Shown: positions 15,201 through 55,692, numbered from the stretch's first letter. The stretch is 64,000 nucleotides of DNA from Candidatus Poseidoniaceae archaeon (GCA_965662895.1 CBFIJH010000010.1:9975-73974), one strand, 5' to 3'. Translations and numbers: made by a program. Notes: generated by a model from the sequence alone, not told the origin.

Positions 15201-16306
15201 TCGTTGACAAAGCTCGATTGGATGCACTCATGCCTTACTCTCTCGATACGCAATTGCGTTTCCTTACGATTGCCACGCTTCTCCTTTCTTTCGATGTCGT
15301 CAACGGCATGGGTATGCTGGCAGGAAGCGGCTGGGCAACGTATGAAGCCATTCAGAAAGGCGACAAGATATCCATTCTCTTCCTACCACTCATCGACGGT
15401 CTGACAGCTGCGAATCTGATCAATCAGTTTGAAATCGGCTCCGAGTCGATGCAGAGTTTCCTCATCGGTGGAATCTTCTTCATTGAAGGTGCTGTCATGA
15501 TCTATCTCTCTTCGAGAACTGACAGCATCTATGATTCAGAGATCTTCGAATGGAAGGACGATGATGAATTCTTCAACTTCATTGAGTACATGGGATTCTC
15601 GGGCGTTGCGTCGGCATTGACGGGTGTCATTTACGCCTTTGGAGAGGACCAAACAAACCTTGCATTCTTCCTTACAGCATTGATTCTTACAGGACTCGCC
15701 ATCACTGGTTTTGATAAATCACAAGCAGAAGTACGCTGGCGTCGAGGACTCGGCGTGTTTGGTTCAGTCCTCACATTGTTCATGCTGTTTTTGAGATTGG
15801 ATGAGAACTCCGATGATGTATTGTTCAAGTACCTCACACTTGTTATCATCGGCTTGCTTGCGCTTGGATATGGTTTCCTTTACATGCAGCGAAGGTCAAC
15901 TTACGACGTGCGAGATGTTGCCATTCCACAAGTCTTTGGTAATGTTGTTCCGAAAGCTCAACGCCAATCCTCTCCAAAACAGTCGAAAGATGAGGAAGAA
16001 GAGGTTGTTGAAGAGGAAGAAGAGGTTGTTGAAGAAGAAAACAACATGACTGTTGAAGAAAAGGAAATCCTCGAATTGGATGAAGCATTCGAAGACGAAT
16101 TGGATGAAATTATCGAGCCAATTGGTAATGCAACCACGGAAAACATTGGTTACATCGAGACCATGGAAGGATTCGATGTCCGTCTACCAAAGGAATCGAT
16201 CGAACAAATCACTCGAACCATTGCAATGACACCTCATGAAGGGTTCAAACCGGTTGTTCGAGTCAACATGCTCGGACAAATCGTTCTCGACTTTGAACCA
16301 ATTTGA
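12278..16306 (+). CDS. Very large polytopic membrane protein of unknown function (1342 aa)
   Basis: Dozens of consecutive hydrophobic segments; acidic linker then a small soluble C-terminal domain; start uncertain (TTG 12278 or a later ATG). Confidence 0.8.
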   Translation: MTSDVLPIQMPAPQRKPQQMVSIANDAIFASEEEEIPFKPVIVRAPGDTKGDSLERFTEIIMFGVAMLAIWTGLLGIAFSENVGEEKFMILFIGGFASSAIALFMVELQAKKNEYRLMISQNYLLGVSFFFMAVGTLWGLRFLGGYFTLQGFEFDGSEFTFLGDVGFDDAENEMFLAGPNMIYVQALGAAAMWFVHRRILDRYKGDTSFGWAVASYIPLGLLLVGVGTWIDWANNEVSYPLGISIVGLCGLAMYSALMSNKSINFAVVSVVSGFIPILYEILNENAPPGGEGGAVSLLVFIIIIQGYLAGNERLKQTLAEKMSFFMIGAVVIAMLIASIQNWNLILGPFKPNELGSDGLASLVTLPVALWITVLCAYFPATHRNRVPAMPIGLAFSLWTLNGDEAILPWVISMVMISYMLFFAEATRKWVANFTMSALAFSYLFSDQIGYGVDQVEMDAAIAIGIVIIAETARRLEKVSIWSSVQTVTFIALSSTILDSPYWFVTWLFVIYLLGMVYESMLRARKGDDMEKRNATLALLTSLIVSSGLLLAKKLEIPDAYQIAGLNGLSLEYLVLGVIVYAIFNTVRDVEVDIGRLLSLLETKASGAYTYDSETNAWYIKEKHVKEKDEVAATEEGSFGSIGRISLAFSLLAVTIGISTLDSSLLEGDTFYLVGLYIIPIGILFWEINSMDVLSSQSRMVGAFMLLIVAASSMPMMLQVDPSDGLFRAGILYDLIFLSAPIGAFVLINKRGLDRDHLSRPADQVMLCVLLVIGMMDQSGGLLFLSMYGLVALVALQYRHHGVTMLAPIATISMHWLGDHGLVYSFLDSFIFSNPDHISEIRVLWFTRVTGMLVAAHMLMPMAWSILDLQKDEYVENPFPWFLPMVWFLFAVWAVLPTASWLPLVACIFGLLNSWVRGDINLVPLLSVGIIFSFMIGFTDGGYFTGEIFGYSMLFSGIIIYLLWFANSRGIMEMNVVDKARLDALMPYSLDTQLRFLTIATLLLSFDVVNGMGMLAGSGWATYEAIQKGDKISILFLPLIDGLTAANLINQFEIGSESMQSFLIGGIFFIEGAVMIYLSSRTDSIYDSEIFEWKDDDEFFNFIEYMGFSGVASALTGVIYAFGEDQTNLAFFLTALILTGLAITGFDKSQAEVRWRRGLGVFGSVLTLFMLFLRLDENSDDVLFKYLTLVIIGLLALGYGFLYMQRRSTYDVRDVAIPQVFGNVVPKAQRQSSPKQSKDEEEEVVEEEEEVVEEENNMTVEEKEILELDEAFEDELDEIIEPIGNATTENIGYIETMEGFDVRLPKESIEQITRTIAMTPHEGFKPVVRVNMLGQIVLDFEPI

Positions 16307-36426: not shown

Positions 36427-36678
36427 ATGGAGGTAGGATATCCTCCAAACATGTCAGATGACGACTCCTCTGATTTGACCGATTTTGAAGAGGGCCTGCT
36501 TGAATGGTTGTGTGAAAACAACTTCCATGTTGAACCTTGGTCAACAAAGAAGGCTGCAAAGCAATTCTACGTTGAAGAAGAAGCAATTTACGAAGCAATT
36601 GCTGCTTTGACACGAAAGGTTCCACTGCGGATTCAAGTCTTTTACAAGAATGGGGCACTTCACATCGCTGCAGATTAG
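36427..36678 (+). CDS. Small hypothetical protein (possible winged-helix)
   Basis: 83-aa ORF; GGAGG SD suggests a start at MSDDD (36451). Confidence 0.6.
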   Translation: MEVGYPPNMSDDDSSDLTDFEEGLLEWLCENNFHVEPWSTKKAAKQFYVEEEAIYEAIAALTRKVPLRIQVFYKNGALHIAAD

Positions 36679-36682
36679 AAAA

Positions 36683-37558
36683 TTACTCCGAAGCCTCATC
36701 TGCCGTTCTAGACTTCATCAGAAAGTTCAGCCATTTTGGTTGGCGTACTTCTCCGTCATCCGTCACGAATGAACGAATCATTAACGAAAGCAAGTCAATG
36801 ATGATGACCACAATAAAGATGAGAATGAGTAAAGCAAGCACCTTGTCGTATTGTAAGAGTTTGAGATACGTATTGATGTAGAAACCAATACCCCCTGCTC
36901 CAACAAGACCAATCACTGTACCATGTCGAACATTGTATTCAAACATAAACATGAGTTGGCTAAGCAGATGATTCCCCGTCTCGGGAATGACGACGGAAGT
37001 GAAGATGGTTGGATGAGAAATGCCCATCGCTTTGCTGACATCAAGAGAATCACTGGGCATGCCCTCAAAGGCCTCGTACTGTAATTTTCCAAGATAGCCA
37101 ACCGTGTAGAAGGTCATGGCGAGAACACCCGCCAAAGGACCGACGCCGATAACGATGACGAAGATTATTGCCCAGATGAGTGACGGGAGGCTTCGGATGG
37201 CCGATAGCACAATTCGGAATACTAGAGCAATGGGCATAGGCATCAGGTTTTTTGCTGCAAAAGAGGAAAGAGAAAGTGCTCCAATGAACCCAAGAATTGT
37301 GGCAACAAAGGCGATTTTGATTGTTTCAACCATGCCTACGTATCCAACCGAACAAAGCAATTCAATGTCTTTCTCACAAACGGGATACGATTGTGCTTCC
37401 AAAACAGACCAGTTCGGCGGCCACATGCTGTCATGAATGAAGGTTGACAGGTTGTCAAATCCTCCACCTAATCGCCCCCAATCACCAGCCAAATCGCTGA
37501 GAACGAGAAGAGTAAGGAACAACAAACCGCCGGCAGCGGCGATGAAGCCCTTTCTCAT
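36683..37558 (-). CDS. ABC transporter permease, PhnE/PtxC family
   Basis: MWPP, ETIKIA, RSLPSLIWA, GVGPLAGVLA, GKL..E, FEYNVR...IGLVGAGGIG; ATGA overlap with the ATPase fixes the start at 37558. Confidence 0.9.
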   Translation of the reverse strand: MRKGFIAAAGGLLFLTLLVLSDLAGDWGRLGGGFDNLSTFIHDSMWPPNWSVLEAQSYPVCEKDIELLCSVGYVGMVETIKIAFVATILGFIGALSLSSFAAKNLMPMPIALVFRIVLSAIRSLPSLIWAIIFVIVIGVGPLAGVLAMTFYTVGYLGKLQYEAFEGMPSDSLDVSKAMGISHPTIFTSVVIPETGNHLLSQLMFMFEYNVRHGTVIGLVGAGGIGFYINTYLKLLQYDKVLALLILIFIVVIIIDLLSLMIRSFVTDDGEVRQPKWLNFLMKSRTADEASE

Positions 37559-38232
37559 TCCTCTTCCTCCTGCATTTTCTGCCATTGTTCGATGGACATG
37601 TCGAGAAGTTGTTTGTCTTCGATCAACCAAATTCTTGTGGCAATCATCTCAACATTCTCTTCATGATGCTCAACCATTATGATCGAATTTCCTGATTCGA
37701 TGAGGGTTTGTACTGCTTCGGTAACAACGTCCACGGTTGAATGATCGAGTTCGCTCAAAAATTCGTCAGCCAACAAGAGCTTTGGCCGTTGTGCCAAAGC
37801 ACGAGCTGTTGCAACCCTTCGCATTTGCCCACCTGATAATCGCCGAATAGGCTCACGGATTTTCTCTTTCAAGCCGACCGCGGAAAGAGCTGACACAACT
37901 CGTTCCATTCGCTCTTCTCGCTTCCCTTTCAGCAGTGGAAGACTGGCTCGTGCCCCCAGATTTACATTGTGATAGACGCTTGCGTGACGAACCAAACCAA
38001 GTCGTTGTGGAATGTAGCCCAGTCCACCTTGTGATGAAAGTTGAAGTTCCAACGTACCCTGTCGTGGAGGAACCAAGCCTGCAATGGTTCGAACAAGCGT
38101 GGTCTTTCCGATGCCTGATGGGCCGAGAACAGCGATAATCTCACCAGAGTGAACCTCCAATGAAATATCCCGAACCAAATCTTCCTTGAATCCGATGCTC
38201 AAATCCGAAATGGTGAGGAGTGGTTCAGCCAT
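37555..38232 (-). CDS. ABC transporter ATP-binding subunit, PhnC-like
   Basis: GPSGIGKTT, LSGGQMRRV, LLADE, H-loop; start MAEPLL. Confidence 0.92.
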   Translation of the reverse strand: MAEPLLTISDLSIGFKEDLVRDISLEVHSGEIIAVLGPSGIGKTTLVRTIAGLVPPRQGTLELQLSSQGGLGYIPQRLGLVRHASVYHNVNLGARASLPLLKGKREERMERVVSALSAVGLKEKIREPIRRLSGGQMRRVATARALAQRPKLLLADEFLSELDHSTVDVVTEAVQTLIESGNSIIMVEHHEENVEMIATRIWLIEDKQLLDMSIEQWQKMQEEEE

Positions 38233-38249
38233 GTGCATCAACCTCTTGT

Positions 38250-39398
38250 TCATGATGAGATGTCGTATTTCGTATCGAAATAGTTCGAAATTCCAGGTAT
38301 TGAACCGATGAGTGAACCATATATTCCGAGGTGTGTTTCCGTATCTGCTTGAACCAAACCATTCGTATTGAGGATGTTCGAAAGGATGTAATCGCCACAT
38401 TGTGAGCGAGATGTGTCTTCATCAACGTTGTTCTCATTCACATCAAGGCATCCAGTAACAATGGAATCACCAACGACGCCATCTTCGATGTACGTCTCAT
38501 TGTTGAGTGCAAGTAGGGCATCAAGTACGAGACGTTGCTCATCTTCATCGAGGAAATCAGGATTAAACATAACTGGATGCGAAGGCGCTTGACCATAGGA
38601 CGGTAAGAGGATGTACTCATCCAAACCAAGACACCAATCCTCGTTCGCAGCAGGGTCGTCGAATCCACAATAGGTCGAAACCGATGAATCCTTGACAAAC
38701 GCAACATCACCTGTCCCATCCGACAAACAGTGAAGGGCACCACCATAGGACGAATATGGTGTGCCCGAATCCGGAATGCTTGCATCCTCACTGAAGTACG
38801 AAAAGATGGTTGATCTGAGCGATTCAATGTCATCTTCAGGACCGACAACAGGTGCGTATCCTTCCGAGATAAGGAAACCCATTGGAAGCAACATTCCCGC
38901 CGACTTCAGCCATCCTGTATGGCAAGGCGTTGTTCCTTCCAGTGTTGCAAACGGGTCTGTTGAAGCGTTGTCATCGAGGTAAGCGTTTGCTGCATCTGAA
39001 CCGTTGAGAACAACTGCATGCGCATTGTAATAGCTACGGCCATCGGATTTTGTATCGGCTGCGAGAACTTCCAATCCATATTGTTGCCAACCCATCCATG
39101 CAGCTCCTGCATCCATGAACGCTATATCCGCATGGCCAAAGCGCAATGCTTCAATGATTGCTCCCTCTGAAGTGATCGGATAGAGTTCAACTTCAAGACC
39201 GGTCTGTTCGCTCACAAAATCTGCAAAAATTTGTGGGTTGGCATCGACATTTGTATAGTCGTCTTTTATTTCAAATGCGATTCGGAGGGTTTCAAGTTCG
39301 GAATCTTGACCGTCGTCCCCAATGCAGCCAGCAAGCGATCCTAAAACAATCAAGAAGGCGAGCAGTATCGATATTTTTGCCGTTTTCCACATCATCAC
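38250..39398 (-). CDS. Substrate-binding lipoprotein (PhnD/SsuA/transferrin superfamily) with a complete transferrin-type Fe(III)/carbonate site
   Basis: Lipobox LAGC; motifs MDAG, YYNAHAVV, CHTGWLKSAG, YSSYGGALHCL, GDVAFVK, APSHPV match a transferrin lobe; lacks the PhnD STSG motif. Confidence 0.85.
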   Translation of the reverse strand: MMMWKTAKISILLAFLIVLGSLAGCIGDDGQDSELETLRIAFEIKDDYTNVDANPQIFADFVSEQTGLEVELYPITSEGAIIEALRFGHADIAFMDAGAAWMGWQQYGLEVLAADTKSDGRSYYNAHAVVLNGSDAANAYLDDNASTDPFATLEGTTPCHTGWLKSAGMLLPMGFLISEGYAPVVGPEDDIESLRSTIFSYFSEDASIPDSGTPYSSYGGALHCLSDGTGDVAFVKDSSVSTYCGFDDPAANEDWCLGLDEYILLPSYGQAPSHPVMFNPDFLDEDEQRLVLDALLALNNETYIEDGVVGDSIVTGCLDVNENNVDEDTSRSQCGDYILSNILNTNGLVQADTETHLGIYGSLIGSIPGISNYFDTKYDISS

Positions 39399-39405
39399 CT
39401 CACCG

Positions 39406-39423
39406 TTTTCGGTCGCCCTAAAA
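39406..39423. promoter_or_regulatory. Imperfect DtxR-family-like operator 2 (TTTTCGG-TCGC-CCTAAAA)
   Basis: One mismatch to TTTTAGG-N4-CCTAAAA; lies between the TATA box and the SD of the binding-protein gene. Confidence 0.65.
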
Positions 39424-39430
39424 AACTGAA

Positions 39431-39438
39431 GTATATAA
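39431..39438 (-). promoter_or_regulatory. Archaeal TATA box (TTATATAC on minus strand) for the transferrin-like ABC operon
   Basis: + strand gtatataa, ~35 bp upstream of the start codon. Confidence 0.65.
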
Positions 39439-39456
39439 TTTTAGGGTTCCCTAAAA
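39439..39456. promoter_or_regulatory. Perfect palindrome TTTTAGGG-TT-CCCTAAAA, DtxR-family-like operator 1
   Basis: 8-bp perfect inverted repeat (TTAGG-N4-CCTAA core) abutting the TATA box at the BRE position. Confidence 0.75.
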
Positions 39457-40398
39457 CTACGCATCAATCCACGCATTCACCAAGGATTCTGCGTATGGGT
39501 CCGTGGTGAGACCGTCGTGGAAAGACGGGCGAACAACAACCAGCATCTCGACGGTGCCACCCCAATTCGGTTGCCCGACGACGACAACCTCAGCAACTCT
39601 GGTTCCATCTGGATCTGTTCCTGAAGTGGTGTAACAATCGTACACCCAAACGTTGAGTTCGACATCGCCTGAACTTGGCCGGAACGTATGTGGCTGAGCA
39701 TCCTCTTTTTGATCAAGTCGGAAGGCTTCGCTATCGATACGAATCGGAACGCGCTCATCGACCAAATCGATGGCTAGACGCATTCTTGATTCTTGCATGC
39801 CAAGTAGAGAAGAAATCCAGATTGATGATTCAACTTGGAGGAACGAGTTTTGTTGATGAGGCGTGCGTAAAGAAAGACTCTGAACAACCTCGAAATTTGT
39901 CGGATCTAATGGTTCCACGAAGATCCATGTGTATTGTTCACTGCTTGGCCAAGCAGGTGCATAGGGGTTCTCTGTTGCGAACGGTTCGCCCCATTGTTCT
40001 GGAGCTCTAGGGGATTCAGCAGGTATCAATCCAGAGGCGCCGAGCATCAACAAGACCAACATTCCAGTGATGATTCGCCGATTCCGGAATTCGCTCCAAT
40101 CCATCCTTCCAGCAGGACTTGCGAAGGAGAGCGCAACAACGACTGGGAGAACGACAAGTGTTCCATATGGAACAACGAGCAAAAGAATGAGACTAAGAAA
40201 TGCGTACCTGGTAGTTTTTTCTCCCAAGAACGATGACATCTCGAGAGATTCGTCTTTCACTCGAAGCCGGATGACGCCATATGCGAGGGGAATCGAAACG
40301 AGAATGAGGAGAAAGCCAACTGCATCAAGAGCCACTCCCATGCCGATTGAACGAAAATCAACCATCATATGCGTTTGGGAGTACGCCGTGAAAAACAA
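39457..40398 (-). CDS. Membrane protein, hypothetical (divergent from the ABC-2 exporter)
   Basis: ~3-4 TM segments plus a soluble C-terminal domain; start probably ~40365. Confidence 0.7.
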   Translation of the reverse strand: MFFTAYSQTHMMVDFRSIGMGVALDAVGFLLILVSIPLAYGVIRLRVKDESLEMSSFLGEKTTRYAFLSLILLLVVPYGTLVVLPVVVALSFASPAGRMDWSEFRNRRIITGMLVLLMLGASGLIPAESPRAPEQWGEPFATENPYAPAWPSSEQYTWIFVEPLDPTNFEVVQSLSLRTPHQQNSFLQVESSIWISSLLGMQESRMRLAIDLVDERVPIRIDSEAFRLDQKEDAQPHTFRPSSGDVELNVWVYDCYTTSGTDPDGTRVAEVVVVGQPNWGGTVEMLVVVRPSFHDGLTTDPYAESLVNAWIDA

Positions 40399-49026: not shown

Positions 49027-52000
49027 CTATTGTTGCTGTTGCGCTTGAGCAGCATATTGTTGAGCATACTGTGCAGCCGTTGCCTCATCGTAACCTTGCG
49101 CTACGAACTGTTGGTAGTACTGATTGTAGTATTGCGTGTACAAATCATTGCTCGCAGCGGGTGCAGCAGCAGCGGCAGGAGCCGCAGCAGCCTGTCCAAC
49201 ATACTGAGCGGCATAAGCTCGTGCGGTTTCCTCAGGATATCCTTGAGCAATCAATTGTTGCACATACTGTTCAGTCATGTCCATCTCTTGTCCATAACCA
49301 GCAGCAGCTGCACTCAAGTTGTCGATCTTCTCGCCGCTACCTCCACGGAGGAAGAGTACGGAAACAACGAGGAGCACCAAGACTGAGGCGATGATTCCTA
49401 TGATGAGCATCATGCTATCGTCTTCTGTTTCTTCGCTTGATTGTTCGTTGTTTGACTGTTCAGTCCACTCGCCGGTTTCTGGGTCGTAGGTCCAATCACC
49501 ATTTTCTGAAATCCAATCACACTGCAAGGTGGTAGTGTTCCAAACGAAACCACCGCCGGCAAGGGCAGCGCTTGAATTGGCAAGAACGCCACGACAGATA
49601 CTCAATTTCACTCCTACCGACTTGGTAAGGTTGTCCGACCAACGCTCGTCATCACCTTCGTACACTCGAACCCAAATCTCTACTACTTCGCTTGTGTTGC
49701 TGTATCGGTCGCCGATGAAGAGCGACAATTCGAACGATTCTGAGTCGGAAAGAGCTTCCGTTCGGTCAAATCTGTTGTTGGATTGAAGATTGTACTTCTC
49801 AATTGCAGATGCTTTGAAATCATCCTTGTTGAATGCTGCTTCAACATAGACTTCACCAGTTTCAGAACCTGAGAGTATGGTTCCAGTAATGGTGTAGGTT
49901 TGATCGGAAACAAATCCGGACTCATTTGAGAAATCATCGTATTGGACTTCAGGCATTTCATCACCAAAACCATCAGGAACGACGACGAAATACATTCTGT
50001 ATTTGTCAGAGAATTTGCCGGATGCGTCGTAAACGCGCAGTTCCATACGGATTTGAGACTCCGCTGTTCCTGAATCATCGACGGTTACGTTCTTGAATCT
50101 GTAGGAGAAGAGTCCATTGCTTGCAGCGGTTTCCTCGAATGTGTGACCTTCCAAATTGAACGATGTGTCACCATAAGGCGCATCAAAGAAGATCTTCCAT
50201 TCGTAGGTGACAATACCGTTGCTTCCGTCGATAGCGTCCGCATCGAAGGATTCACTAGCATCAAAGTGAACAACAAGTTCACCAGATTCAGGTAAAATGA
50301 TTCGGTTGACGTCCCATTCCGCGCTCGATACGGTCTTCGTTCCAGTGAACTCAATGTTGTCAACATACTCATCTCGCATGTCAATGCTCATGTTTGCTTC
50401 AGGTGCAAATGCATCGGCCAGTACATCGTTTGTTTCAACAACTACCGAGATGATTCGAGCGTGACCTGCCTCATCATGAAGCATGAGCGTCACAGTCCAT
50501 TGCGCACCCTGGAGACAACCTGTTGCTGAAGACAGGTCGGTCTTACAGAAGGTTGCTGTCGGGGACGCTTCGGAGATATGATCGGTTCCAGTCGCCATCG
50601 TCTGTCCCATCCAGTCGGTTGGGCCATCAAGAATCCAGTCTGCAGTTAATGGTACAGAGGTCCCTGTCATGTAAGCGAAATTGACCGTCGCATCGCTCTT
50701 CATGTAATGCGTTGCGTATCCACCGGTCGATGGGTCGATACCTGGCATCTCATCGTCAATTTTGAGGCCAAGATCTTGTCCCATCGAGCCAAAGCCTTCA
50801 GGATACGGCGTTACTGAGAATTCCAACATGTTTCCGAGAAGCGGGAAGGTTGTGCTGTCGGCTCGTGAGGAATACGTTGCAACATCGATGGTCGAGACAA
50901 TCATACCACCTTGGTAGTAGCTGCACGTACCCATAATGACGTCTTTGCTGTTTTCGCTTGTTCTCAAGAGGCTCTGGAAGTATCCACCGTCCTCCATGTA
51001 ACCGTTGCAAACACCAGGAACATTCTGTGTGCTGACCGAGTTCGTATTGAGAACCGCAGTTGCAACCGTTCCATCGCCCTCAAATCCTTGGAAGGCTGTC
51101 GTTGAAACGTTGTCCATGATTGGGTGGAACGGATCAGCGATGTCGAGACCTGTGTACAGAATCTTCGTTCCGGGTGTGTCTCGGCTCTGAACGTCCATTC
51201 CGAACGGCAATCGACCGTTCAATCCGACATCAAGACCGTAAATTTGCGTACCTTGTGGACCAAGGTGTGCTTGGACGGTACCACCAGCGGACATGAACGA
51301 CTCGAGAGTCTGTCGGTTGGCAGTTGACCCCAATTTTTGATAATAGCCACGGCCACCGCTTTCAACGTCTTTCGCTGCTACATCATCCTGCCATGGAAGG
51401 AGAATCTTGTCGTAATGCGTCATCCATCCAGAATCGAGATACGTGGTCCAATCGTTGATTGCAAACTGTGTGTAACTCATTCCTAGCGTTTGCAAGTCTT
51501 CCTTGATGGTGGAGGTTCGAGCGGTTGAATCGCTTAGGATAGCAACATCGATCTGATCGGCAAAGGTCGCGTGGAAATAACGAACGTTTCCACTCGGGTT
51601 TCCGTTTGCAAGTTCTGCGTGGAAGCTGATGTTGTAGGTATGGCCATCCATCCAATTGTTGAAGGAAGGGAACGTCAAATCAATTCGTTCGTTTGAGGCA
51701 AGTGCCGTGGTCGTCGAAGAGGATGATGCTTGATGGACTTGCATTCCGTCAGTTTCGTCAAAGACCGTCATGTAGAACATGTAATCTCCGCCGAGCACTC
51801 CGTTTGTTGCCCTGAGGTCCCAACTGTGGGCTAGACTACCATCGATTGGTAGAACACACTCGTAGGTACCATCATCAAGACATGCAAGTGTGCTCGGTTT
51901 ACCGAGCGTGATGTCGACAGATTCGACGTTGAAAATCACCTGTTCGATGTTGTTCGAATCGCTCAACTCATTGTCACCAAACCAAGGGACTCCCGCTGTC

Positions 52001-55000
52001 GTGTTGTCAAAAATCGTTTCAGCACGAATCATGTAAACGCCTGAGAAGAATTCGTGGTTTGCAACGGTTGTGGTCGCAACGTCTTCTGCATCAACGTTGG
52101 TGCGGGACGTGGTGTAGGAGGCTTCTTCAAAGAACGTAAATTCTTGCAGTGTGATGTTGTTAAACGCCACACCCTTGAAGCCATCGTTGACCCCGTTTCG
52201 ACCATCGCCATCGCTCTGGAATTCAAAGTTGATGTCAACCGTTGAACCTGCTAATGAGATGCACTCGCGGAACCACTGTAGGCTGTCGGCGGCTGTGTTG
52301 TTGAGAACATAAAGATGCGTCAAGTCAATGCTTCTGGTAAGTACAAGATCGTCTGTGTTGAAGAAAACGTTGTAATTTCCACCGGAGCCATCCGTGCTTG
52401 ATGAATCGCCAATGAATGAGATTTCTGCTTGATTGACGGATTCGCTTGAGTTTGTTACCCCATCATCGTTGTCGTCGTTTCGGCATGTGCCATCCTCGTC
52501 GTAATCGTTCCACTGTCCGAGAAGAACCGCTGAGTACGAATCTGAACCCTTGGTGAAGTCGACGTTAATCGATGCGTAGTCGTTCACGTCGACAATCGAG
52601 GTTCCATCGACATCGATACCATAGAAGGTGTCAGCGTAGTACTCGAAGTTCAACGAAACGAAATCTCCGGACATTCCTGTCAAATCGACGTTCGGAATTG
52701 TGAGCGTTTCATTTTCCCAGAGGTCGCCATAACCTTGCGTAGCAGTATCACAGGGGTGGCCAAACCAATACGCATTGTTGTTGAAGATTGGATCGTTGCA
52801 CGTGGCTTCGTTGTAGATTGCTCCTTGTGGGTTGCCATCATCGCTGTAGACGTATCCTTCAGCTCCACCTTCGAACGATTCCTTACAGATAACCGCTGGT
52901 GCGCTACACAACACATCGGACGGTGTTGCAGAGAAGACTGTCGCTTCAATGTCAAAGTCAACCATGGTATTGCCCCAGTTGTTGGTGACAACATCGATGT
53001 CAAACAGCCCTTCAGCATACAATCCACCAGGATTGAAGTACTCGATTCCTTCGATGGTAGGGTCGTAGAGGTTGAACGGTTGTACGTAGCCGATGATGTC
53101 ATCGTTAACGGATTGCTCATCCCATGCATGATTGCTCAGTGTTGCTGAAATTCGGTAGATTGTATCGTTGAGTAGATTTGCAGAAATGTTTGCAGTCTCT
53201 GTTTCACCCGGCCCAAGATTCTGGAGACTGAGTTGGCGCTGAAGCGTTTGTGGGTTCGGGAAATATGCAGTGTTCTGTTTGTAGATGGTAACGTTATCAA
53301 TGGCATATCCATCACGACCGGTCCACAGCGACTCGTTATCATCAGCGATGGAACCTTCAAACCCGGAACGGAGTCGGAAACGAATGTCGACCGTTTCACC
53401 GGCCCATGGTGAAAGATCGAATTCACCGACGCCATCTTGCGTAAAGTTGTCCCATCCATAATATGTACCGGAGCTGTAGAGGCCGTAATAGTAGACACCT
53501 TCGGCGACACCTCCGATGCCGTTGATCTTGAACGCCCGATCGTTGTCGTACCCGCCCCAAAGAGTGGAGCCTGAAAGACAAGCACCAGCAACTTGTGCAG
53601 AGGTTGGACATGCGATGACCGACCATCCAGTTTCGTCAGACCCGACTTCAATCATCGCCACATCGTCCCATAGTTCTCCAATGAGCCATTGTCCAGTTGT
53701 AGCGTCAACAGAACCCAAGGCTCCAAAGCCAAGGTGGCGGAACAACTCAACGCTGAGGAAGGCTCGGTCAGAGCCAGTCAAATCAACATCTGTCAATGTC
53801 AAGGCATCGTCCCAATGTCGGCCGTAACCAGACCAGAGGTCTCCACTGCTGTTGGTCTTGTATTCCCCTGCCCACATGAAGTCGGTTGGGTTCTGGTAGT
53901 TCGCAGATAGGTTCGGCGCGTTGTTTCCGTCGGTTGCACCCACGGAATTGTTCGTTTCAAGAATCCAGCTCGAGGATTGATCGACATACTCGTCAAAGGA
54001 CCACGTACATCCTCCACCGCAACCTGTTGCATCTGCAGGAGTATCGAAGTCGTGCGTAAATACTGTGGAATTCGATGAGTTGGCTTCGTCGACGACCTTG
54101 AGTTCAACATCGAGCGTCGCTGTTTGTGTGAGCGTGTCCATTCCAGTGTTTGTGACGGTGACATTGATTTCACGAGTACCTTCACCGACTGCACCAAAGA
54201 AACGGTCAACAGGATTGATGTCTATGCCAGTAATCGCAATGTCTTTGTTGTCCATTTCGACAACAGTGACATAGTCGTACTGACCATCCCATCCAAGGTT
54301 ATCAATCCAACTTCCGAAACTGTAGGACGCATGTCCAACAACGATATCAGGTGCAGAGTTCGAAGCACCCGCAAGTTGTCCAACAACGGCGATGTTTGGT
54401 CGACGGCCGGCCTCGTAGGAGAGTGGTGTCACGTAGCCACCCGATCCATCGGAGAGGGTGACTTGAACAGTTGTTGGGAAGTTGAGCCAGAAGGAGGATG
54501 TTGAACCCCCAGCTGAGTCCGATGTGTTTTGTTGGTAAGCAACGGTTGGGTTGACGAAGTCTGGTTCGCCATCGCCGTTGATGTCTGCGACAGTGACGTC
54601 ATAGGAGATGTACGGCCCAAAGTAAGCAAGTGTGGGATTCGACCAGGTTCCAACCGTTGATGATGTTGAATACGTGATGTTCTCCAGATTCCCTTGCGTC
54701 ATAGCGATGGTGTCGATTGTTCCATCGTCATCGATATCACCGATGTCGAATGCTCCAAACGTGTTGGCCATGTTCACGACGTGAGTGTCGATTTGATTGG
54801 TTCCGTAAGCATAGGTTGTTGGGAATTGGTTTGAAAGACAATTGAATTCGATGATTGTAACGTTGTCGTCGTTACCCGGGTTTGTGGTTTGACCGGTCGT
54901 GTAGTCAACACCTTCGCTCCTTAGGAGCCAAATGTCCTCGTCGACGCAGGTGGTTCCAATCCCTTGTGTTTCGCCCCAATCGCCGATTTCGAGATCTCTG

Positions 55001-55692
55001 TAGGCGTTCGTGTTCGACGTTCCCAACGATGTTGTCAGTGGCGTTGTACTCGCTCCGATTGGGCCGAGGTAGGTGACGACACGTTGATTTGAGATATCGT
55101 TGAGCAGGTCGAGGATAACGACGTCATCGTTTCCATCCTGGTTAACGTCCCCGACGGCGAGGTCCCATGCCCAAAAGTGGGTGAATCGTTGGCCGATGGT
55201 GAAGGAGTTGCTGCTGCACCCATCGTTTTCAAGGATGGTCAAGTTACCTGGTTCGCCAGCCGGCGCACCGTTATCGTCTCTCTTGAACGGGTTGTTTCTC
55301 TGGAAAATGACGATGTCTGCCACACCATCGCCATCGAAATCACCGACTTCGAGGAATTGAACGTTGGAGAACTCATCCCATTCTGCGTTACGCGAGGTGT
55401 TCTTCGAAACCCATACGTCGTAGCGCTCAGAGAAATCTCCGTTACCATCGTTGAGGAGAATGGAGATGGTGTGCGTACCGTCTGTTGCAATCGCCATGTC
55501 GTTGTGACCATCGCAATTGAAGTCGGCAATACCGATGTCAATCGGATCACGATTTGTTGTGTAATTTCGGGCAGCGGAGGCGCTTGCATTGGTTGCAAAT
55601 GCAGCCGTCGTCGATAGAACCATAATGAGAACGAGGAAAATACTCTGAAGTTTTGACCCGATTTGGTTTGTCTTTGTTTGCATCAATATCAC
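49027..55692 (-). CDS. Giant (2221 aa) cell-surface protein: FG-GAP/VCBS repeats, jelly-roll and Ig/PKD-like domains, C-terminal TM and Q/Y/A-rich cytoplasmic tail
   Basis: Signal peptide; DFNCDGHND, DFDGDGVAD, DVNQDGNDD, DIDDDGTID, DINGDGEPD; FDLSPWAGETVDIRFR; FDASESFDAD...YEW; TM IIGIIASVLVLLVVSVLFL. Confidence 0.85.
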   Translation of the reverse strand: MILMQTKTNQIGSKLQSIFLVLIMVLSTTAAFATNASASAARNYTTNRDPIDIGIADFNCDGHNDMAIATDGTHTISILLNDGNGDFSERYDVWVSKNTSRNAEWDEFSNVQFLEVGDFDGDGVADIVIFQRNNPFKRDDNGAPAGEPGNLTILENDGCSSNSFTIGQRFTHFWAWDLAVGDVNQDGNDDVVILDLLNDISNQRVVTYLGPIGASTTPLTTSLGTSNTNAYRDLEIGDWGETQGIGTTCVDEDIWLLRSEGVDYTTGQTTNPGNDDNVTIIEFNCLSNQFPTTYAYGTNQIDTHVVNMANTFGAFDIGDIDDDGTIDTIAMTQGNLENITYSTSSTVGTWSNPTLAYFGPYISYDVTVADINGDGEPDFVNPTVAYQQNTSDSAGGSTSSFWLNFPTTVQVTLSDGSGGYVTPLSYEAGRRPNIAVVGQLAGASNSAPDIVVGHASYSFGSWIDNLGWDGQYDYVTVVEMDNKDIAITGIDINPVDRFFGAVGEGTREINVTVTNTGMDTLTQTATLDVELKVVDEANSSNSTVFTHDFDTPADATGCGGGCTWSFDEYVDQSSSWILETNNSVGATDGNNAPNLSANYQNPTDFMWAGEYKTNSSGDLWSGYGRHWDDALTLTDVDLTGSDRAFLSVELFRHLGFGALGSVDATTGQWLIGELWDDVAMIEVGSDETGWSVIACPTSAQVAGACLSGSTLWGGYDNDRAFKINGIGGVAEGVYYYGLYSSGTYYGWDNFTQDGVGEFDLSPWAGETVDIRFRLRSGFEGSIADDNESLWTGRDGYAIDNVTIYKQNTAYFPNPQTLQRQLSLQNLGPGETETANISANLLNDTIYRISATLSNHAWDEQSVNDDIIGYVQPFNLYDPTIEGIEYFNPGGLYAEGLFDIDVVTNNWGNTMVDFDIEATVFSATPSDVLCSAPAVICKESFEGGAEGYVYSDDGNPQGAIYNEATCNDPIFNNNAYWFGHPCDTATQGYGDLWENETLTIPNVDLTGMSGDFVSLNFEYYADTFYGIDVDGTSIVDVNDYASINVDFTKGSDSYSAVLLGQWNDYDEDGTCRNDDNDDGVTNSSESVNQAEISFIGDSSSTDGSGGNYNVFFNTDDLVLTRSIDLTHLYVLNNTAADSLQWFRECISLAGSTVDINFEFQSDGDGRNGVNDGFKGVAFNNITLQEFTFFEEASYTTSRTNVDAEDVATTTVANHEFFSGVYMIRAETIFDNTTAGVPWFGDNELSDSNNIEQVIFNVESVDITLGKPSTLACLDDGTYECVLPIDGSLAHSWDLRATNGVLGGDYMFYMTVFDETDGMQVHQASSSSTTTALASNERIDLTFPSFNNWMDGHTYNISFHAELANGNPSGNVRYFHATFADQIDVAILSDSTARTSTIKEDLQTLGMSYTQFAINDWTTYLDSGWMTHYDKILLPWQDDVAAKDVESGGRGYYQKLGSTANRQTLESFMSAGGTVQAHLGPQGTQIYGLDVGLNGRLPFGMDVQSRDTPGTKILYTGLDIADPFHPIMDNVSTTAFQGFEGDGTVATAVLNTNSVSTQNVPGVCNGYMEDGGYFQSLLRTSENSKDVIMGTCSYYQGGMIVSTIDVATYSSRADSTTFPLLGNMLEFSVTPYPEGFGSMGQDLGLKIDDEMPGIDPSTGGYATHYMKSDATVNFAYMTGTSVPLTADWILDGPTDWMGQTMATGTDHISEASPTATFCKTDLSSATGCLQGAQWTVTLMLHDEAGHARIISVVVETNDVLADAFAPEANMSIDMRDEYVDNIEFTGTKTVSSAEWDVNRIILPESGELVVHFDASESFDADAIDGSNGIVTYEWKIFFDAPYGDTSFNLEGHTFEETAASNGLFSYRFKNVTVDDSGTAESQIRMELRVYDASGKFSDKYRMYFVVVPDGFGDEMPEVQYDDFSNESGFVSDQTYTITGTILSGSETGEVYVEAAFNKDDFKASAIEKYNLQSNNRFDRTEALSDSESFELSLFIGDRYSNTSEVVEIWVRVYEGDDERWSDNLTKSVGVKLSICRGVLANSSAALAGGGFVWNTTTLQCDWISENGDWTYDPETGEWTEQSNNEQSSEETEDDSMMLIIGIIASVLVLLVVSVLFLRGGSGEKIDNLSAAAAGYGQEMDMTEQYVQQLIAQGYPEETARAYAAQYVGQAAAAPAAAAAPAASNDLYTQYYNQYYQQFVAQGYDEATAAQYAQQYAAQAQQQQ

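What the first reader, a model, noticed from the sequence alone, without database searches (positions are those of the whole stretch)
36683..39456. Candidate archaeal transferrin: a single-lobe Fe(III)-carbonate-binding lipoprotein feeding a PhnCE-type ABC importer
Seen in sequence: the 382-aa lipoprotein (lipobox LAGC, C25) carries, in order, ADIAFMDAG (D96), SYYNAHAVV (Y124), PCHTGWLKSAG (C159, T161, K165), YSSYGGALHCL (Y218, C224), GDVAFVK (K236) and APSHPV (H274). Established knowledge: the human serum transferrin N-lobe has ADAVTLDAG (D63), FYYAVAVV (Y95), SCHTGLGRSAG (C118, T120, R124 carbonate site), [11 protein letters not shown] (Y188, C194), GDVAFVK (K206) and VPSHTV (H249). By eye, all four iron ligands, the anion helix (R to K) and the C118-C194 disulfide pair are kept, while the PhnD phosphonate-binding STSG motif is absent. 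No C-P lyase or phosphite dehydrogenase gene lies in the window. Inference: this operon would be auto-annotated phnDCE but is likely an Fe(III)/carbonate uptake system. It could be a prokaryotic relative or evolutionary intermediate of animal transferrins, with implications for iron acquisition by marine archaea and its sensitivity to carbonate/pH. A distant PhnD-transferrin relationship is already known, so novelty should be checked against the literature.
Basis: partly seen in the sequence, partly recalled or inferred. Interest (0 to 1): 0.95.

Follow-up and report, generated by a model that had tools for sequence, protein, structure and literature searches.

The report
Archaeal transferrin-like iron-uptake ABC operon
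A marine archaeon's so-called phosphonate transporter uses a binding protein that is a true one-lobe relative of animal transferrin with the iron and carbonate site intact, so it probably imports iron and looks like the prokaryotic stock from which transferrins arose.

Summary
In detail: every motif and residue number is exact. The 382-aa lipoprotein passes Pfam's Transferrin cut-off as well as Phosphonate-bd. It fails both PhnD NCBIfam cut-offs. Its listed solved relatives by sequence are all transferrin-family proteins.

D96, Y124, Y218, H274, T161, K165 and the C159-C224 pair are invariant in 38 homologues and align with transferrin's ligands.

In a PhnD-rooted tree it falls in a 100/99-supported clade with eukaryotic transferrins.

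The family occurs in 83 of 101 Poseidoniales (Marine Group II) genomes sampled; PhnJ occurs in 0 of 101. The operon order, binding protein then ATPase then PhnE-like permease, is conserved. It sits behind a conserved double palindromic operator. In 50 of 78 related loci the binding protein has two lobes.

No other recognised iron importer was found in this 92%-complete genome.

Iron binding itself is untested. One caveat: H274, and possibly both tyrosines, also occur in true PhnD. The discriminating features are therefore D96, K165 and the loss of the (S/T)TSG motif. I found no paper describing this.

The parts
39439..39456 (.). Operator 1: an 18-bp perfect palindrome, TTTTAGGGAACCCTAAAA (core TTTAGG-N4-CCTAAA), directly upstream of the TATA-like box.
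   Evidence: Sequence read. It is the only perfect match to TTTAGGNNNNCCTAAA in the 1.86-Mb genome. Sites with at most 1 mismatch lie upstream of the binding-protein gene in 74 of 78 related loci.
39432..39438 (-). TATA-like box TTATATA between the two operators (inferred archaeal promoter).
   Evidence: The same arrangement, operator then (T/A)TATA(T/A) then operator, appears in the upstream alignments. Assignment as the promoter is inference.
39407..39422 (.). Operator 2: TTTAGGGCGACCGAAA (1 mismatch), 33 nt from operator 1, over the expected transcription start.
   Evidence: It forms the only pair of such sites in the genome. At least two sites occur in 61 of 78 related loci.
38250..39398 (-). 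Single-lobe transferrin-family substrate-binding lipoprotein, 382 aa from the GTG start. It has lipobox LAGC with C25, metal ligands D96, Y124, Y218 and H274, anion site T161, K165, A167 and G168, and cysteine pairs C159-C224, C244/C256 and C317/C334.
39324..39398 (-). Signal peptide and lipobox (residues 1-25; the C25 codon is 39324-39326).
   Evidence: G24 and C25 are nearly invariant in 38 homologues. The AF2 model shows an N-terminal helix at 3-25 followed by a low-confidence linker at 24-33.
37555..38253 (-). ABC ATPase, 232 aa from the ATG at 38253. Its start overlaps the binding protein's TGA stop as ATGA.
   Evidence: ABC_tran 99.9 bits. PhnC TIGR02315 scores 115.4 bits against a cut-off of 266.1. 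The junction was read. A match to it is present in 77 of 78 loci, directly downstream of the binding-protein gene in most; in 2 truncated loci (L075, L076) the only match lies upstream on the opposite strand and is probably a cross-hit to the neighbouring ABC gene.
36683..37558 (-). PhnE-type ABC permease, 291 aa from the ATG at 37558. Its start overlaps the ATPase stop as ATGA.
   Evidence: TIGR01097 PhnE scores 213.7 bits against a cut-off of 216.7. BPD_transp_1 scores 58.4 bits. The junction was read. The gene is present after the ATPase in 69 of 78 loci; most of the rest are cut contigs.

Best explanation
This is a three-gene, translationally coupled ABC importer of a Marine Group II (Poseidoniales) archaeon. 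Its membrane-anchored binding protein is a single-lobe transferrin.

Proposed mechanism:
- The lipoprotein sits on the outer face of the cytoplasmic membrane and captures dissolved inorganic Fe(III).
- Iron is held in the cleft between its two subdomains by D96, Y124, Y218 and H274.
- Carbonate acts as synergistic anion, held by T161, K165 and the N-terminus of the helix beginning S166-A167-G168.
- The closed protein docks on the PhnE-type permease, and ATP hydrolysis by the PhnC-like ATPase opens it and drives iron inward.
- Transcription is probably repressed by a dimeric factor bound to two TTTAGG-N4-CCTAAA palindromes that flank the TATA box. This may be the genome's single DtxR-family regulator.

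Shown here: homology to transferrins, conservation of the site residues, operon structure, conservation of the operator, phylogenetic position, distribution, and the lack of phosphonate-lyase genes and of other known iron importers.

Inferred: iron and carbonate as ligands, transport through the PhnE-type permease, and the regulator and its signal.
For: 1. Family. Pfam Transferrin scores 64 bits against a cut-off of 20.3. All 60 listed PDB sequence hits, of 98 in total, are transferrin-family, best E 1.1e-20. With a family profile the same holds (the listed rows include one transferrin-like Inhibitor of Carbonic Anhydrase, 3mc2), best E 3.6e-36. A search of 1.84 billion cluster representatives found only 357 at E<=1e-3. 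Those I had named are archaeal proteins of this family, ichthyosporean, green-algal and animal transferrins.

2. Pairwise BLASTP. Against Amoebidium transferrin: 133 bits, 33% identity. Against Trichoplax melanotransferrin: 63 bits. Against a true PhnD of the same phylum: 51 bits.

3. Site. D96, Y124, T161, K165, A167, G168, Y218, H274, C159 and C224 are invariant in 38 homologues. Of 131 lobes from the Poseidoniales hit set, 127 read D-Y-T-K-Y-H. The columns coincide with D/Y/T/(K,R)/Y/H of named animal and ichthyosporean transferrins. The five true PhnD have G/S at the Asp column and (S/T)TSG where the query has KSAG.

4. Loss in concert. Of 240 lobes with all six columns aligned, 185 keep all four metal ligands and 22 keep none. 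These rows are not independent.

5. Fold. The AF2 model has pLDDT 86. VIA-align Z is 23.3 to diferric human transferrin (272 residues, rmsd 3.5, 28% identity) and 22.6 to ovotransferrin N-lobe.

6. Tree. In the careful, PhnD-rooted tree the query lies in a 100/99 clade of 44 Cys-bearing lobes that includes a 99/97 eukaryote clade.

7. Not a phosphonate system by context. PhnD equivalog scores 33.6 against 261.1 and TIGR01098 scores 52.4 against 112.05. PhnJ is in 0 of 101 Poseidoniales genomes, while the family is in 83 of 101. The genome has five PstS-type matches for phosphate.

8. Orphan need. The own genome, 92% complete, gave no FeoB_C, FecCD, Nramp, Zip, FTR1 or Fur match. Its one SBP_bac_6 protein lies beside ThiN.

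9. Dedicated control. Operator sites lie upstream in 74 of 78 loci. The motif is rarer in the genome than in shuffles: 3 sites with at most 1 mismatch against 1-7, and 18 with at most 2 mismatches against 71-85. One DtxR-family gene is present.
Against: - No binding or transport experiment exists.
- Pfam Phosphonate-bd scores higher (73 bits) than Transferrin (64 bits).
- The permease is almost an equivalog of PhnE, at 213.7 against 216.7 bits.
- The fold does not discriminate: PtxB Z 22.4 and HtxB Z 21.7 tie with transferrins.
- H274 lies in a PSH motif that true PhnD share. The two tyrosines also align with PhnD tyrosines in MAFFT, though not in BLASTP. Only D96, K165 and the lost (S/T)TSG separate the site from PhnD.
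- 3D clustering of the ligands could not be measured, as no coordinates are available.
- The other phosphonate routes (PhnW, PhnZ/PhnY*, PhnA, PtxD) were not searched. The PhnX search had an uninformative control.
- The genome is 92% complete, and an orphan Peripla_BP_2 protein exists.
- The link of the operator to DtxR rests on a half-site (TTAGG) that I recall, not on a test. One 2-mismatch site lies about 330 nt upstream of a PstS-type ORF.
Confidence: 0.6

Rival explanations
1. It is what it is annotated as: a PhnCDE-type importer of phosphonate, phosphite or another phosphorus oxyanion. The transferrin-like residues would be ancestral features of a PhnD subfamily.
For: - Phosphonate-bd is the top Pfam hit at 73 bits.
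- The permease scores 213.7 bits to PhnE TIGR01097, cut-off 216.7.
- The gene order is the classical binding protein, ATPase, permease.
- H274/PSH, and in MAFFT both tyrosines, are present in true PhnD.
- Sources name relatives 'ABC-type phosphate/phosphonate transport system substrate-binding protein'.
- Tully 2019 lists phosphonate transport as a core MGII trait (passages read).
Against: - PhnD equivalog and subfamily models are far below their cut-offs: 33.6 against 261.1 and 52.4 against 112.05.
- The (S/T)TSG phosphonate-binding turn is replaced by KSAG, and the G/S column is replaced by Asp.
- By phmmer the protein finds transferrins: all 60 listed PDB rows (of 98 hits) are transferrin-family and none is a PhnD-family structure. 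Only 357 clusters match in 1.84 billion.
- PhnJ is in 0 of 101 genomes of the order, and PhnX is over its cut-off in 0 of 101, although that control was uninformative.
- The genome has separate PstS-type systems.
- Lockwood 2022 does not mention Poseidoniales, Euryarchaeota or MGII among phosphonate catabolisers in its main text (term search).
Confidence: 0.15
2. It is a transferrin-type binding protein for something other than Fe(III)-carbonate. Candidates are another hard metal ion (for example Mn(III), Al, Ga, Ti or V), iron with a different synergistic anion, or an anion alone.
For: Solved transferrin structures among the matches hold Bi, Yb, Ti, Cr, Ru, Al, Cu and Ce, with oxalate, malonate, citrate or pyrophosphate as anions (entry titles). 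The site is therefore chemically permissive. Paralogous archaeal lobes with altered sets exist, such as D-Y-T-K-F-D and D-Y-T-G-Y-H.
Against: The complete D/Y/Y/H plus T/K set is the one used for Fe(III)-carbonate in every characterised transferrin (established knowledge). Iron is the metal for which the genome otherwise lacks an importer. Seawater supplies carbonate in excess (established knowledge).
Confidence: 0.15
3. The gene is a eukaryotic transferrin lobe that marine archaea captured by horizontal transfer and wired to a PhnCE transporter. It would then not be a prokaryotic ancestor-like form.
For: Branching inside the 100/99 Cys-bearing clade is unresolved, drawn as an open fork. The best non-archaeal hits are ichthyosporean transferrins at 33% identity.
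Against: - Rooted on PhnD, Cys-less archaeal forms (Nitrosopumilus, Heimdallarchaeota) that already carry D, Y, Y and H branch between PhnD and the Cys-bearing clade, with supports 99/93, 99/92 and 100/99.
- Eukaryotes form one 99/97 clade.
- The archaeal proteins lack the Cys-rich insert shared by ichthyosporean, algal and animal lobes.
- The archaeal proteins retain the ABC operon.
- 331-aa forms occur in other Thermoplasmatota families.
Confidence: 0.07

Closest known systems
Eukaryotic transferrins (serotransferrin, lactoferrin, ovotransferrin, melanotransferrin; Pfam PF00405)
   Same: - It passes the Pfam gathering score.
- Identity in structure-based alignments is 25-28%.
- The same Asp, Tyr, Tyr and His columns are kept, with Thr plus Lys/Arg and the helix N-terminus for the anion, the CHTG and GDVAFVK motifs, and the cysteine pair equivalent to C118-C194.
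- Two-lobed versions exist in relatives (50 of 78 loci).
   Different: - It has one lobe.
- It is lipid-anchored through a lipobox.
- It is encoded in an operon with an ABC ATPase and permease, rather than being secreted and taken up through a receptor.
- It lacks the Cys-rich insert before the second Tyr and the insert before the His.
- It carries its own 30-residue insert at 300-330 with C317/C334.
- The archaeal duplications are separate from the eukaryotic one.
PhnD, PtxB and HtxB phosphonate, phosphite and hypophosphite binding proteins (PF12974, TIGR03431)
   Same: It has the same class II binding-protein fold (PtxB Z 22.4, HtxB Z 21.7). It passes the PF12974 gathering score. It has the same operon type with a PhnE-like permease. 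It shares the PSH histidine.
   Different: The equivalog and subfamily cut-offs are not met. Structural-alignment identity is 16-18%, against 25-28% to transferrins. Asp stands in place of G/S, KSAG in place of (S/T)TSG, and a disulfide is added. No C-P lyase occurs in the order.
FbpA/FutA 'bacterial transferrins' with FbpBC ABC importers
   Same: The proposed working principle is the same: a periplasmic-type binding protein holds Fe(III) with Tyr, His and carboxylate ligands and a synergistic anion, and hands it to an ABC importer (established knowledge).
   Different: It is a different binding-protein family. The query has no SBP_bac_6/8/11 match: only two Pfam families were found at E<=1. 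The anion in FbpA is phosphate, not carbonate (recalled).
Diatom phytotransferrin ISIP2a (McQuaid et al. 2018, Nature 555:534; not held, recalled, and as cited in PMC7676907)
   Same: It is a proposed carbonate-dependent capture of inorganic Fe(III) at the surface of a marine microbe. Its descent from phosphonate-binding periplasmic proteins is shared with transferrin (passage read).
   Different: ISIP2a is internalised by endocytosis, not by an ABC importer. No Fea1/ISIP2a-type Pfam match was found in the query. Phytotransferrins were not in my trees.

Membership tests
Transferrin family (Pfam PF00405) | Sequence passes the curated family model | tested here: met
   64 bits, E 1.8e-17, against a gathering cut-off of 20.3, in two stretches. 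The precomputed PF00405 label is on all 120 listed homologues.
Transferrin family (Pfam PF00405) | Four metal ligands Asp, Tyr, Tyr, His at the homologous positions | tested here: met
   D96, Y124, Y218 and H274 are invariant in 38 sequences. They align with the ligand columns of lactoferrin, Trichoplax melanotransferrin, skate serotransferrin and Ciona transferrin. This was tested by alignment only, not by 3D distance.
Transferrin family (Pfam PF00405) | Synergistic-anion site: Thr, Arg (or Lys) and the N-terminus of the following helix | tested here: met
   CHTGWLKSAG lies opposite CHTGLGRSAG. T161, K165, A167 and G168 are invariant. K is frequent in ichthyosporean and invertebrate lobes.
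Transferrin family (Pfam PF00405) | Two-subdomain class II binding-protein fold of one lobe | tested here: met
   AF2 pLDDT 86. Foldseek's top hit is ovotransferrin N-lobe at E 2.3e-15. VIA Z is 23.3 to 3qyt over 272 residues at rmsd 3.5. The fold is shared with PtxB and HtxB, so it is not discriminating.
Transferrin family (Pfam PF00405) | Two homologous lobes in one chain | tested here: not met
   The window's protein has one lobe. Relatives in 50 of 78 loci have two. Those duplications are separate from the eukaryotic one.
Transferrin family (Pfam PF00405) | Reversible Fe(III) binding that depends on carbonate | not testable with these tools
   This needs purified protein, tested by UV-visible spectroscopy, ITC and metal analysis.
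PhnD phosphonate-binding protein (TIGR03431; PF12974) | Passes the equivalog or subfamily model | tested here: not met
   TIGR03431 scores 33.6 bits against 261.1. TIGR01098 scores 52.4 against 112.05. The broad Pfam model PF12974 is passed at 73 against 27.
PhnD phosphonate-binding protein (TIGR03431; PF12974) | (S/T)TSG turn that holds the phosphonate group | tested here: not met
   Five true PhnD of the phylum read T/S-(T/G)-S-G. The query reads L-K-S-A-G at the same columns. That this turn binds the phosphonate is recalled from the E. coli PhnD structure, not tested.
PhnD phosphonate-binding protein (TIGR03431; PF12974) | Operon partners PhnC and PhnE | tested here: inconclusive
   PhnE scores 213.7 against 216.7, just under. 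PhnC scores 115.4 against 266.1, no better than many other ABC ATPase models.
PhnD phosphonate-binding protein (TIGR03431; PF12974) | Co-occurrence with a phosphonate or phosphite catabolic route | tested here: inconclusive
   PhnJ is in 0 of 101 genomes, with the E. coli control positive. PhnX is over its cut-off in 0 of 101, but no control genome passed either. PhnW, PhnZ/PhnY*, PhnA and PtxD were not searched.
FbpA/FutA ferric binding proteins | Membership of the SBP_bac_6/8/11 families | tested here: not met
   Only PF12974 and PF00405 were found at E<=1.

The most novel reading that the evidence does not exclude
Crown-group transferrins are an archaeal invention. By this I mean lobes with Asp/Tyr/Tyr/His, the Thr-Lys/Arg carbonate site and the C118-C194-type disulfide. 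They arose from PhnD as binding proteins of ABC importers in marine archaea, through Cys-less D/Y/Y/H intermediates still found in Nitrosopumilus and Heimdallarchaeota. A single transfer then seeded the eukaryotic transferrins.

On this reading the 'phosphonate transporter' counted as a core trait of Marine Group II archaea is their main, carbonate-dependent iron-uptake system. It is often two-lobed by convergent duplication and is controlled by a dedicated metal-responsive operator. Iron acquisition by one of the most abundant archaeal groups of the surface ocean would then depend on seawater carbonate chemistry, as it does in diatoms.
Probability: 0.35. Interest if true: 0.9.

Novelty: new variant of a known kind. 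Interest (0 to 1): 0.8.

Why it matters
1. Metabolic models. It would reassign a gene set present in about four fifths of sampled Marine Group II genomes from phosphorus to iron acquisition. It would also fill the gap that no other recognised iron importer was found in this genome.

2. Ocean chemistry. It would extend carbonate-dependent, transferrin-type capture of inorganic iron from diatoms and animals to abundant planktonic archaea. That bears on how ocean acidification affects iron supply to heterotrophs.

3. Evolution of transferrin. It provides living single-lobe, ABC-coupled relatives of transferrin with the full ligand set, plus Cys-less intermediates. The long-proposed descent of transferrin from PhnD-like binding proteins could then be tested step by step.

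4. Convergent architecture. The archaeal two-lobed forms are an independent replay of the lobe duplication that defines animal transferrins.

Tried and rejected
- **3D check of the ligand cluster.** Not possible. Structure prediction returns no coordinates and /data holds none.
- **Fold comparison.** It does not separate transferrin from PtxB and HtxB: Z 23.3, 22.4 and 21.7 are tied.
- **Regulon search.** The palindrome is confined to this operon. The only other site with at most 1 mismatch (contig C19, position 17428) lies among overlapping ORFs and gave no lead. Extra sites in MGIII loci lie between an S15 peptidase and a DUF454 gene, or precede a second two-lobed binding-protein gene. The operator could therefore not be tied to iron or phosphate genes.
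- **FeoB_N matches.** The four matches cover only the generic GTPase part. FeoB_C found nothing.
- **SBP_bac_6 protein.** I rejected it as a ferric binding protein because it sits beside ThiN.
- **McQuaid 2018.** Could not be read by DOI or PubMed id. Its tree or extended data may already show these archaeal sequences.
- **Paper searches.** Searches found nothing on an archaeal or MGII transferrin. Several hits were matches to the word 'transferring'. Supplements were not open.
- **Bacterial record titles.** Two of the 78 loci carry bacterial titles: L011, a Salipiger bermudensis MAG, and L070, a Flavobacteriaceae MAG. I take these as binning errors, because their sequences and neighbours match the archaeal loci. 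This was not tested further.

Full report
**Observation**

The minus strand of 36683-39456 holds three ORFs:
- a 382-aa protein at 38250..39398;
- an ABC ATPase;
- a permease.

Numbering uses the GTG at 39398. Two ATG codons follow at once, so the true N-terminus may be 1-2 residues shorter.

The stop of the binding-protein gene overlaps the ATPase start as ATGA (38250-38253). The ATPase stop overlaps the permease start in the same way (37555-37558). The three genes are therefore a translationally coupled operon. The ATPase is 232 aa and the permease 291 aa, shorter than the mechanical ORFs.

**Which family**

Pfam finds two families above their curated cut-offs: Phosphonate-bd (73 bits) and Transferrin (64 bits against 20.3, E 1.8e-17).

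NCBI's narrower models are not met:

| Model | Score (bits) | Cut-off (bits) |
|---|---|---|
| PhnD equivalog TIGR03431 | 33.6 | 261.1 |
| Phosphate/phosphite/phosphonate subfamily TIGR01098 | 52.4 | 112.05 |
| PhnE TIGR01097 (permease) | 213.7 | 216.7 |
| PhnC TIGR02315 (ATPase) | 115.4 | 266.1 |

The permease is nearly a PhnE equivalog. The ATPase matches PhnC no better than many other ABC models.

Against all PDB sequences the protein finds 98 distinct sequences at E<=1. All 60 listed are lactoferrins, ovotransferrins, serotransferrins or melanotransferrin, the best at E 1.1e-20, and no PhnD-family structure is among them. A profile of 38 homologues (alignment A1) raises this to E 3.6e-36, with again only transferrin-family rows listed.

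Against 1.84 billion cluster representatives only 357 proteins match at E<=1e-3. That is a small set for a protein supposed to belong to the very large PhnD family.

Pairwise BLASTP gives the following:

| Compared with | Score (bits) | Identity |
|---|---|---|
| Amoebidium (ichthyosporean) transferrin, each lobe | 133 | 33% |
| Trichoplax melanotransferrin | 63 | 27% |
| True PhnD of the same phylum | 51 | 26% |

**Fold**

An AlphaFold2 model built on A1 has mean pLDDT 86 and pTM 0.78.

Foldseek ranks ovotransferrin N-lobe first (E 2.3e-15), followed mostly by human transferrin and lactoferrins. PtxB is at rank 9.

VIA-align gives the following:

| Structure | Z | Identity |
|---|---|---|
| Diferric human transferrin (272 residues, rmsd 3.5) | 23.3 | 28% |
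| Ovotransferrin N-lobe | 22.6 | 28% |
| PtxB | 22.4 | 16% |
| HtxB | 21.7 | 18% |

The fold is thus shared and does not discriminate. The identities in these alignments favour transferrin. I could not measure whether the four ligand side chains converge, because no coordinates are returned.

**The site**

In A1 (38 sequences, 54-85% identical to the query) these residues are invariant: D96, Y124, C159, H160, T161, G162, K165, S166, A167, G168, Y218, C224, K236 and H274.

HMM-based and MAFFT L-INS-i alignments put them in the same columns as D/Y/C/T/(K or R)/A/G/Y/C/K/H of named transferrins. These include Trichoplax and Antedon melanotransferrin, skate serotransferrin, Ciona, and several Ichthyosporea (names).

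Lysine at the anion position is not a departure. It is the commoner residue in the ichthyosporean and invertebrate lobes tabulated.

Five true PhnD proteins of other Thermoplasmatota families match Pfam Phosphonate-bd at 127-159 bits and the A1 profile at only 19-40 bits. They differ at just these points:
- G or S in place of D96;
- (S/T)(T/G)SG in place of K-S-A-G;
- no cysteine pair.

The histidine sits in a PSH motif that these PhnD share in both MAFFT and BLASTP alignments. The two tyrosines also align with PhnD tyrosines in MAFFT, though not in BLASTP.

The ligand set behaves as a unit. Of 131 lobes from the Poseidoniales hit set, 127 read D-Y-T-K-Y-H. Of all 240 lobes with the six columns aligned, 185 keep four metal ligands and 22 keep none. 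These rows include cluster members and are not independent. Second lobes of some two-lobed archaeal paralogues (P0122, P0123, P0125, P0126, P0129) have lost most of the set at once. This recalls the degenerate lobes known in melanotransferrin (established knowledge).

**Distribution and architecture**

A word-indexed search found 592 homologues. All 120 listed carry both Pfam labels. The names given by sources are 'PhnD/SsuA/transferrin family substrate-binding protein' from Euryarchaeota, Thermoplasmatota or Ca. Thalassarchaeum, 'ABC-type phosphate/phosphonate transport system substrate-binding protein' and, once, 'melanoma-associated antigen p97'.

In one genome per species, 399 stretches encode a relative. 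The 78 best loci are almost all Poseidoniales (MGIIa and MGIIb) or MGIII assemblies, including the original MG-II chromosome record.

With the A1 profile the family is present in 83 of 101 Poseidoniales genomes sampled, and in 41 of 55 of those at least 90% complete.

The order binding protein, ATPase, permease holds in 69 of 78 loci. Most of the others are cut contigs.

In 50 of 78 loci the binding protein has two lobes in one ORF of about 700 aa; in 28 it has one lobe, as here. In the forms closest to the query both lobes keep the full site (P0001, P0005, P0121).

The query groups with lobe 2 of P0001 (100/99), and the two lobes of P0121 are sisters (100/99). Duplication, or loss or conversion, has therefore happened within the archaea, apart from the eukaryotic duplication.

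**Phylogeny**

A careful IQ-TREE analysis used 53 lobes and 261 columns, with LG+C20+F+G4 by PMSF, rooted on the five PhnD. It gives the following order:
1. PhnD (100/100).
2. A Cys-less group containing a Nitrosopumilus protein (99/93).
3. A Heimdallarchaeota protein.
4. A 100/99 clade of 44 Cys-bearing lobes.

Inside that last clade the branching is unresolved among:
- three groups of 317-338-aa prokaryotic forms, which include other Thermoplasmatota families;
- the Poseidoniales group (85/71);
- a single eukaryote clade (99/97).

The eukaryote clade consists of Ichthyosporea (98/93) and animals plus green algae (100/100).

A quick tree of 72 lobes agrees. For the careful tree I dropped 19 rows: degenerate or long-branched lobes and redundant algal or unnamed lobes. 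For the quick tree I dropped 14 of the 86 lobes.

The Cys-less archaeal forms already have D, Y, Y and H but keep a PhnD-like T-G-(S/T)-(S/A)-G turn.

The archaeal proteins lack the Cys-rich insert before the second tyrosine that Ichthyosporea, algae and animals share.

The simplest reading is a prokaryotic series from PhnD to a full transferrin site, with eukaryotic transferrins as one offshoot.

Limits:
- the outgroup is small and comes from one phylum;
- several prokaryotic rows are unnamed metagenomic proteins;
- phytotransferrins and bacterial PhnD, PtxB and HtxB were not included;
- the direction within the crown clade is not resolved.

**Context for phosphorus against iron**

No phosphonate, phosphorus or iron gene lies near the operon. 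Its neighbours are housekeeping genes: DHBP synthase, glycerol-3-phosphate dehydrogenase, an ABC-2 exporter, SAM synthetase, aconitase and others.

For phosphonate use:
- PhnJ was found in 0 of 101 Poseidoniales genomes, with the E. coli control positive, and not in the own genome.
- PhnX passes its cut-off in 0 of 101, but no control genome passed either.
- In the phylum-wide Pfam search, the hits in the two Poseidoniales families scored 36-108 bits (bulk 57-108). The five canonical PhnD of other families that I took as outgroup scored 127-159 bits (separated from the transferrin-like forms by the A1 profile).

For phosphate, the genome has five PstS-type matches.

For iron, the own genome (92% complete) gave no match for FeoB_C, FecCD, Nramp, Zip, FTR1 or Fur. 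Its single SBP_bac_6 protein lies beside ThiN and is probably for thiamine. One orphan 255-aa Peripla_BP_2 protein exists.

Tully 2019 (PMC6336850, passages read) lists 'the transport of phosphonates' among core MGII traits. That presumably refers to this operon.

**Regulation**

Upstream of the gene lies an 18-bp perfect palindrome, TTTTAGGGAACCCTAAAA (39439-39456). It is followed by TTATATA and then a second copy with one mismatch (39407-39422).

Sites with at most one mismatch to TTTAGG-N4-CCTAAA occur in 74 of 78 related loci (161 sites in all), nearly all of them just upstream of the binding-protein gene. The four loci without a site are contigs cut at the gene's 5' end. 61 loci have two or more sites.

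The arms are conserved while the central four bases vary, as expected of a dimeric DNA-binding protein.

In the own genome this is the only perfect site and the only pair. The motif is rarer than in shuffled genomes: 3 sites with at most 1 mismatch against 1-7, and 18 with at most 2 mismatches against 71-85.

The TTAGG/CCTAA half-sites resemble those of DtxR/IdeR iron boxes as I recall them. The genome has one DtxR-family gene and no Fur. This link is a hypothesis only.

**Literature**

Ten searches were run. None found a paper describing an archaeal or Marine Group II transferrin.

[quoted passage not shown] This comes from McQuaid 2018, as cited in PMC7676907 (passage read). The original is not held, so I cannot exclude that its trees already contain these archaeal sequences. 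Supplements were closed.

**Verdict**

The protein is a member of the transferrin family by sequence, site and tree, while working in a PhnCDE-type operon.

The most likely function is Fe(III) uptake with carbonate as synergistic anion (about 0.6). Phosphorus-oxyanion uptake and another metal or anion are the main rivals, at about 0.15 each. The functional claim needs the binding experiment.

Noticed in passing
window 39407-39456; loci L007-L084 upstream of the binding-protein gene: A double palindromic operator, TTTAGG-N4-CCTAAA, flanks the TATA-like box. It is conserved across MGIIa, MGIIb and MGIII (74 of 78 loci) and is almost unique to this operon in the genome. The binding factor is unknown; the genome's single DtxR-family protein is a candidate.
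   Followed up: partly
loci L016-L084 (50 of 78); proteins P0001, P0005, P0026, P0121, P0122: Two-lobed archaeal transferrin-like binding proteins of about 700 aa are commoner than the one-lobe form. Some keep both sites. Some paralogues have a degenerate second lobe. P0034 looks like a recombinant of the two lobes of P0001.
   Followed up: partly
proteins P0219 (Heimdallarchaeota), P0242 (Nitrosopumilus), P0227, P0245: These are Cys-less PhnD-like binding proteins of other marine archaea. They already carry the Asp, Tyr, Tyr and His columns but keep a PhnD-like anion turn. They may be intermediates, or iron binders in their own right.
   Followed up: partly
own genome G000, contig C2, 38732-41608 (outside the window): One open frame of 1086 aa holds three PstS-type (PBP_like_2) domains in tandem. 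A 2-mismatch copy of the operator motif lies about 330 nt upstream (C2:38400).
   Followed up: no
window 36427-36678 (+): An 83-aa acidic ORF with no Pfam match converges on the permease gene. A homologue is present in 49 of 78 related loci at the same place.
   Followed up: no
window 39457-40398 (-): A 313-aa predicted membrane protein with no Pfam match lies directly upstream on the same strand. It is conserved in 37 of 78 loci, and its stop lies one base from operator 1.
   Followed up: no
L047:8802-9734 and L051:6258-7193 (MGIII loci): A 311-312-aa protein just after the permease gene gives a weak, below-cut-off match to the haem-binding HmuY family (23.6 bits against 27).
   Followed up: no
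L045, L050, L055, L063-L065, L067, L069, L070, L073, L074 (about 60-110 nt after the binding-protein gene): In many MGIIb loci a third GC-centred copy of the palindrome (for example TTAGGGGCCCCTAA) lies between the binding-protein and ATPase genes. It could be an internal operator, or a hairpin that sets the ratio of binding protein to transporter.
   Followed up: no
L053:7364-9481: A second two-lobed transferrin-like gene is inserted between the first binding-protein gene and the ATPase. An operator copy precedes the ATPase gene.
   Followed up: partly
window 49027-55692 (-) and 12278-16306 (+): These are very large ORFs of 2221 aa (FG-GAP repeats only at the N-terminus) and 1342 aa (no Pfam match). 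They are probably surface proteins.
   Followed up: no
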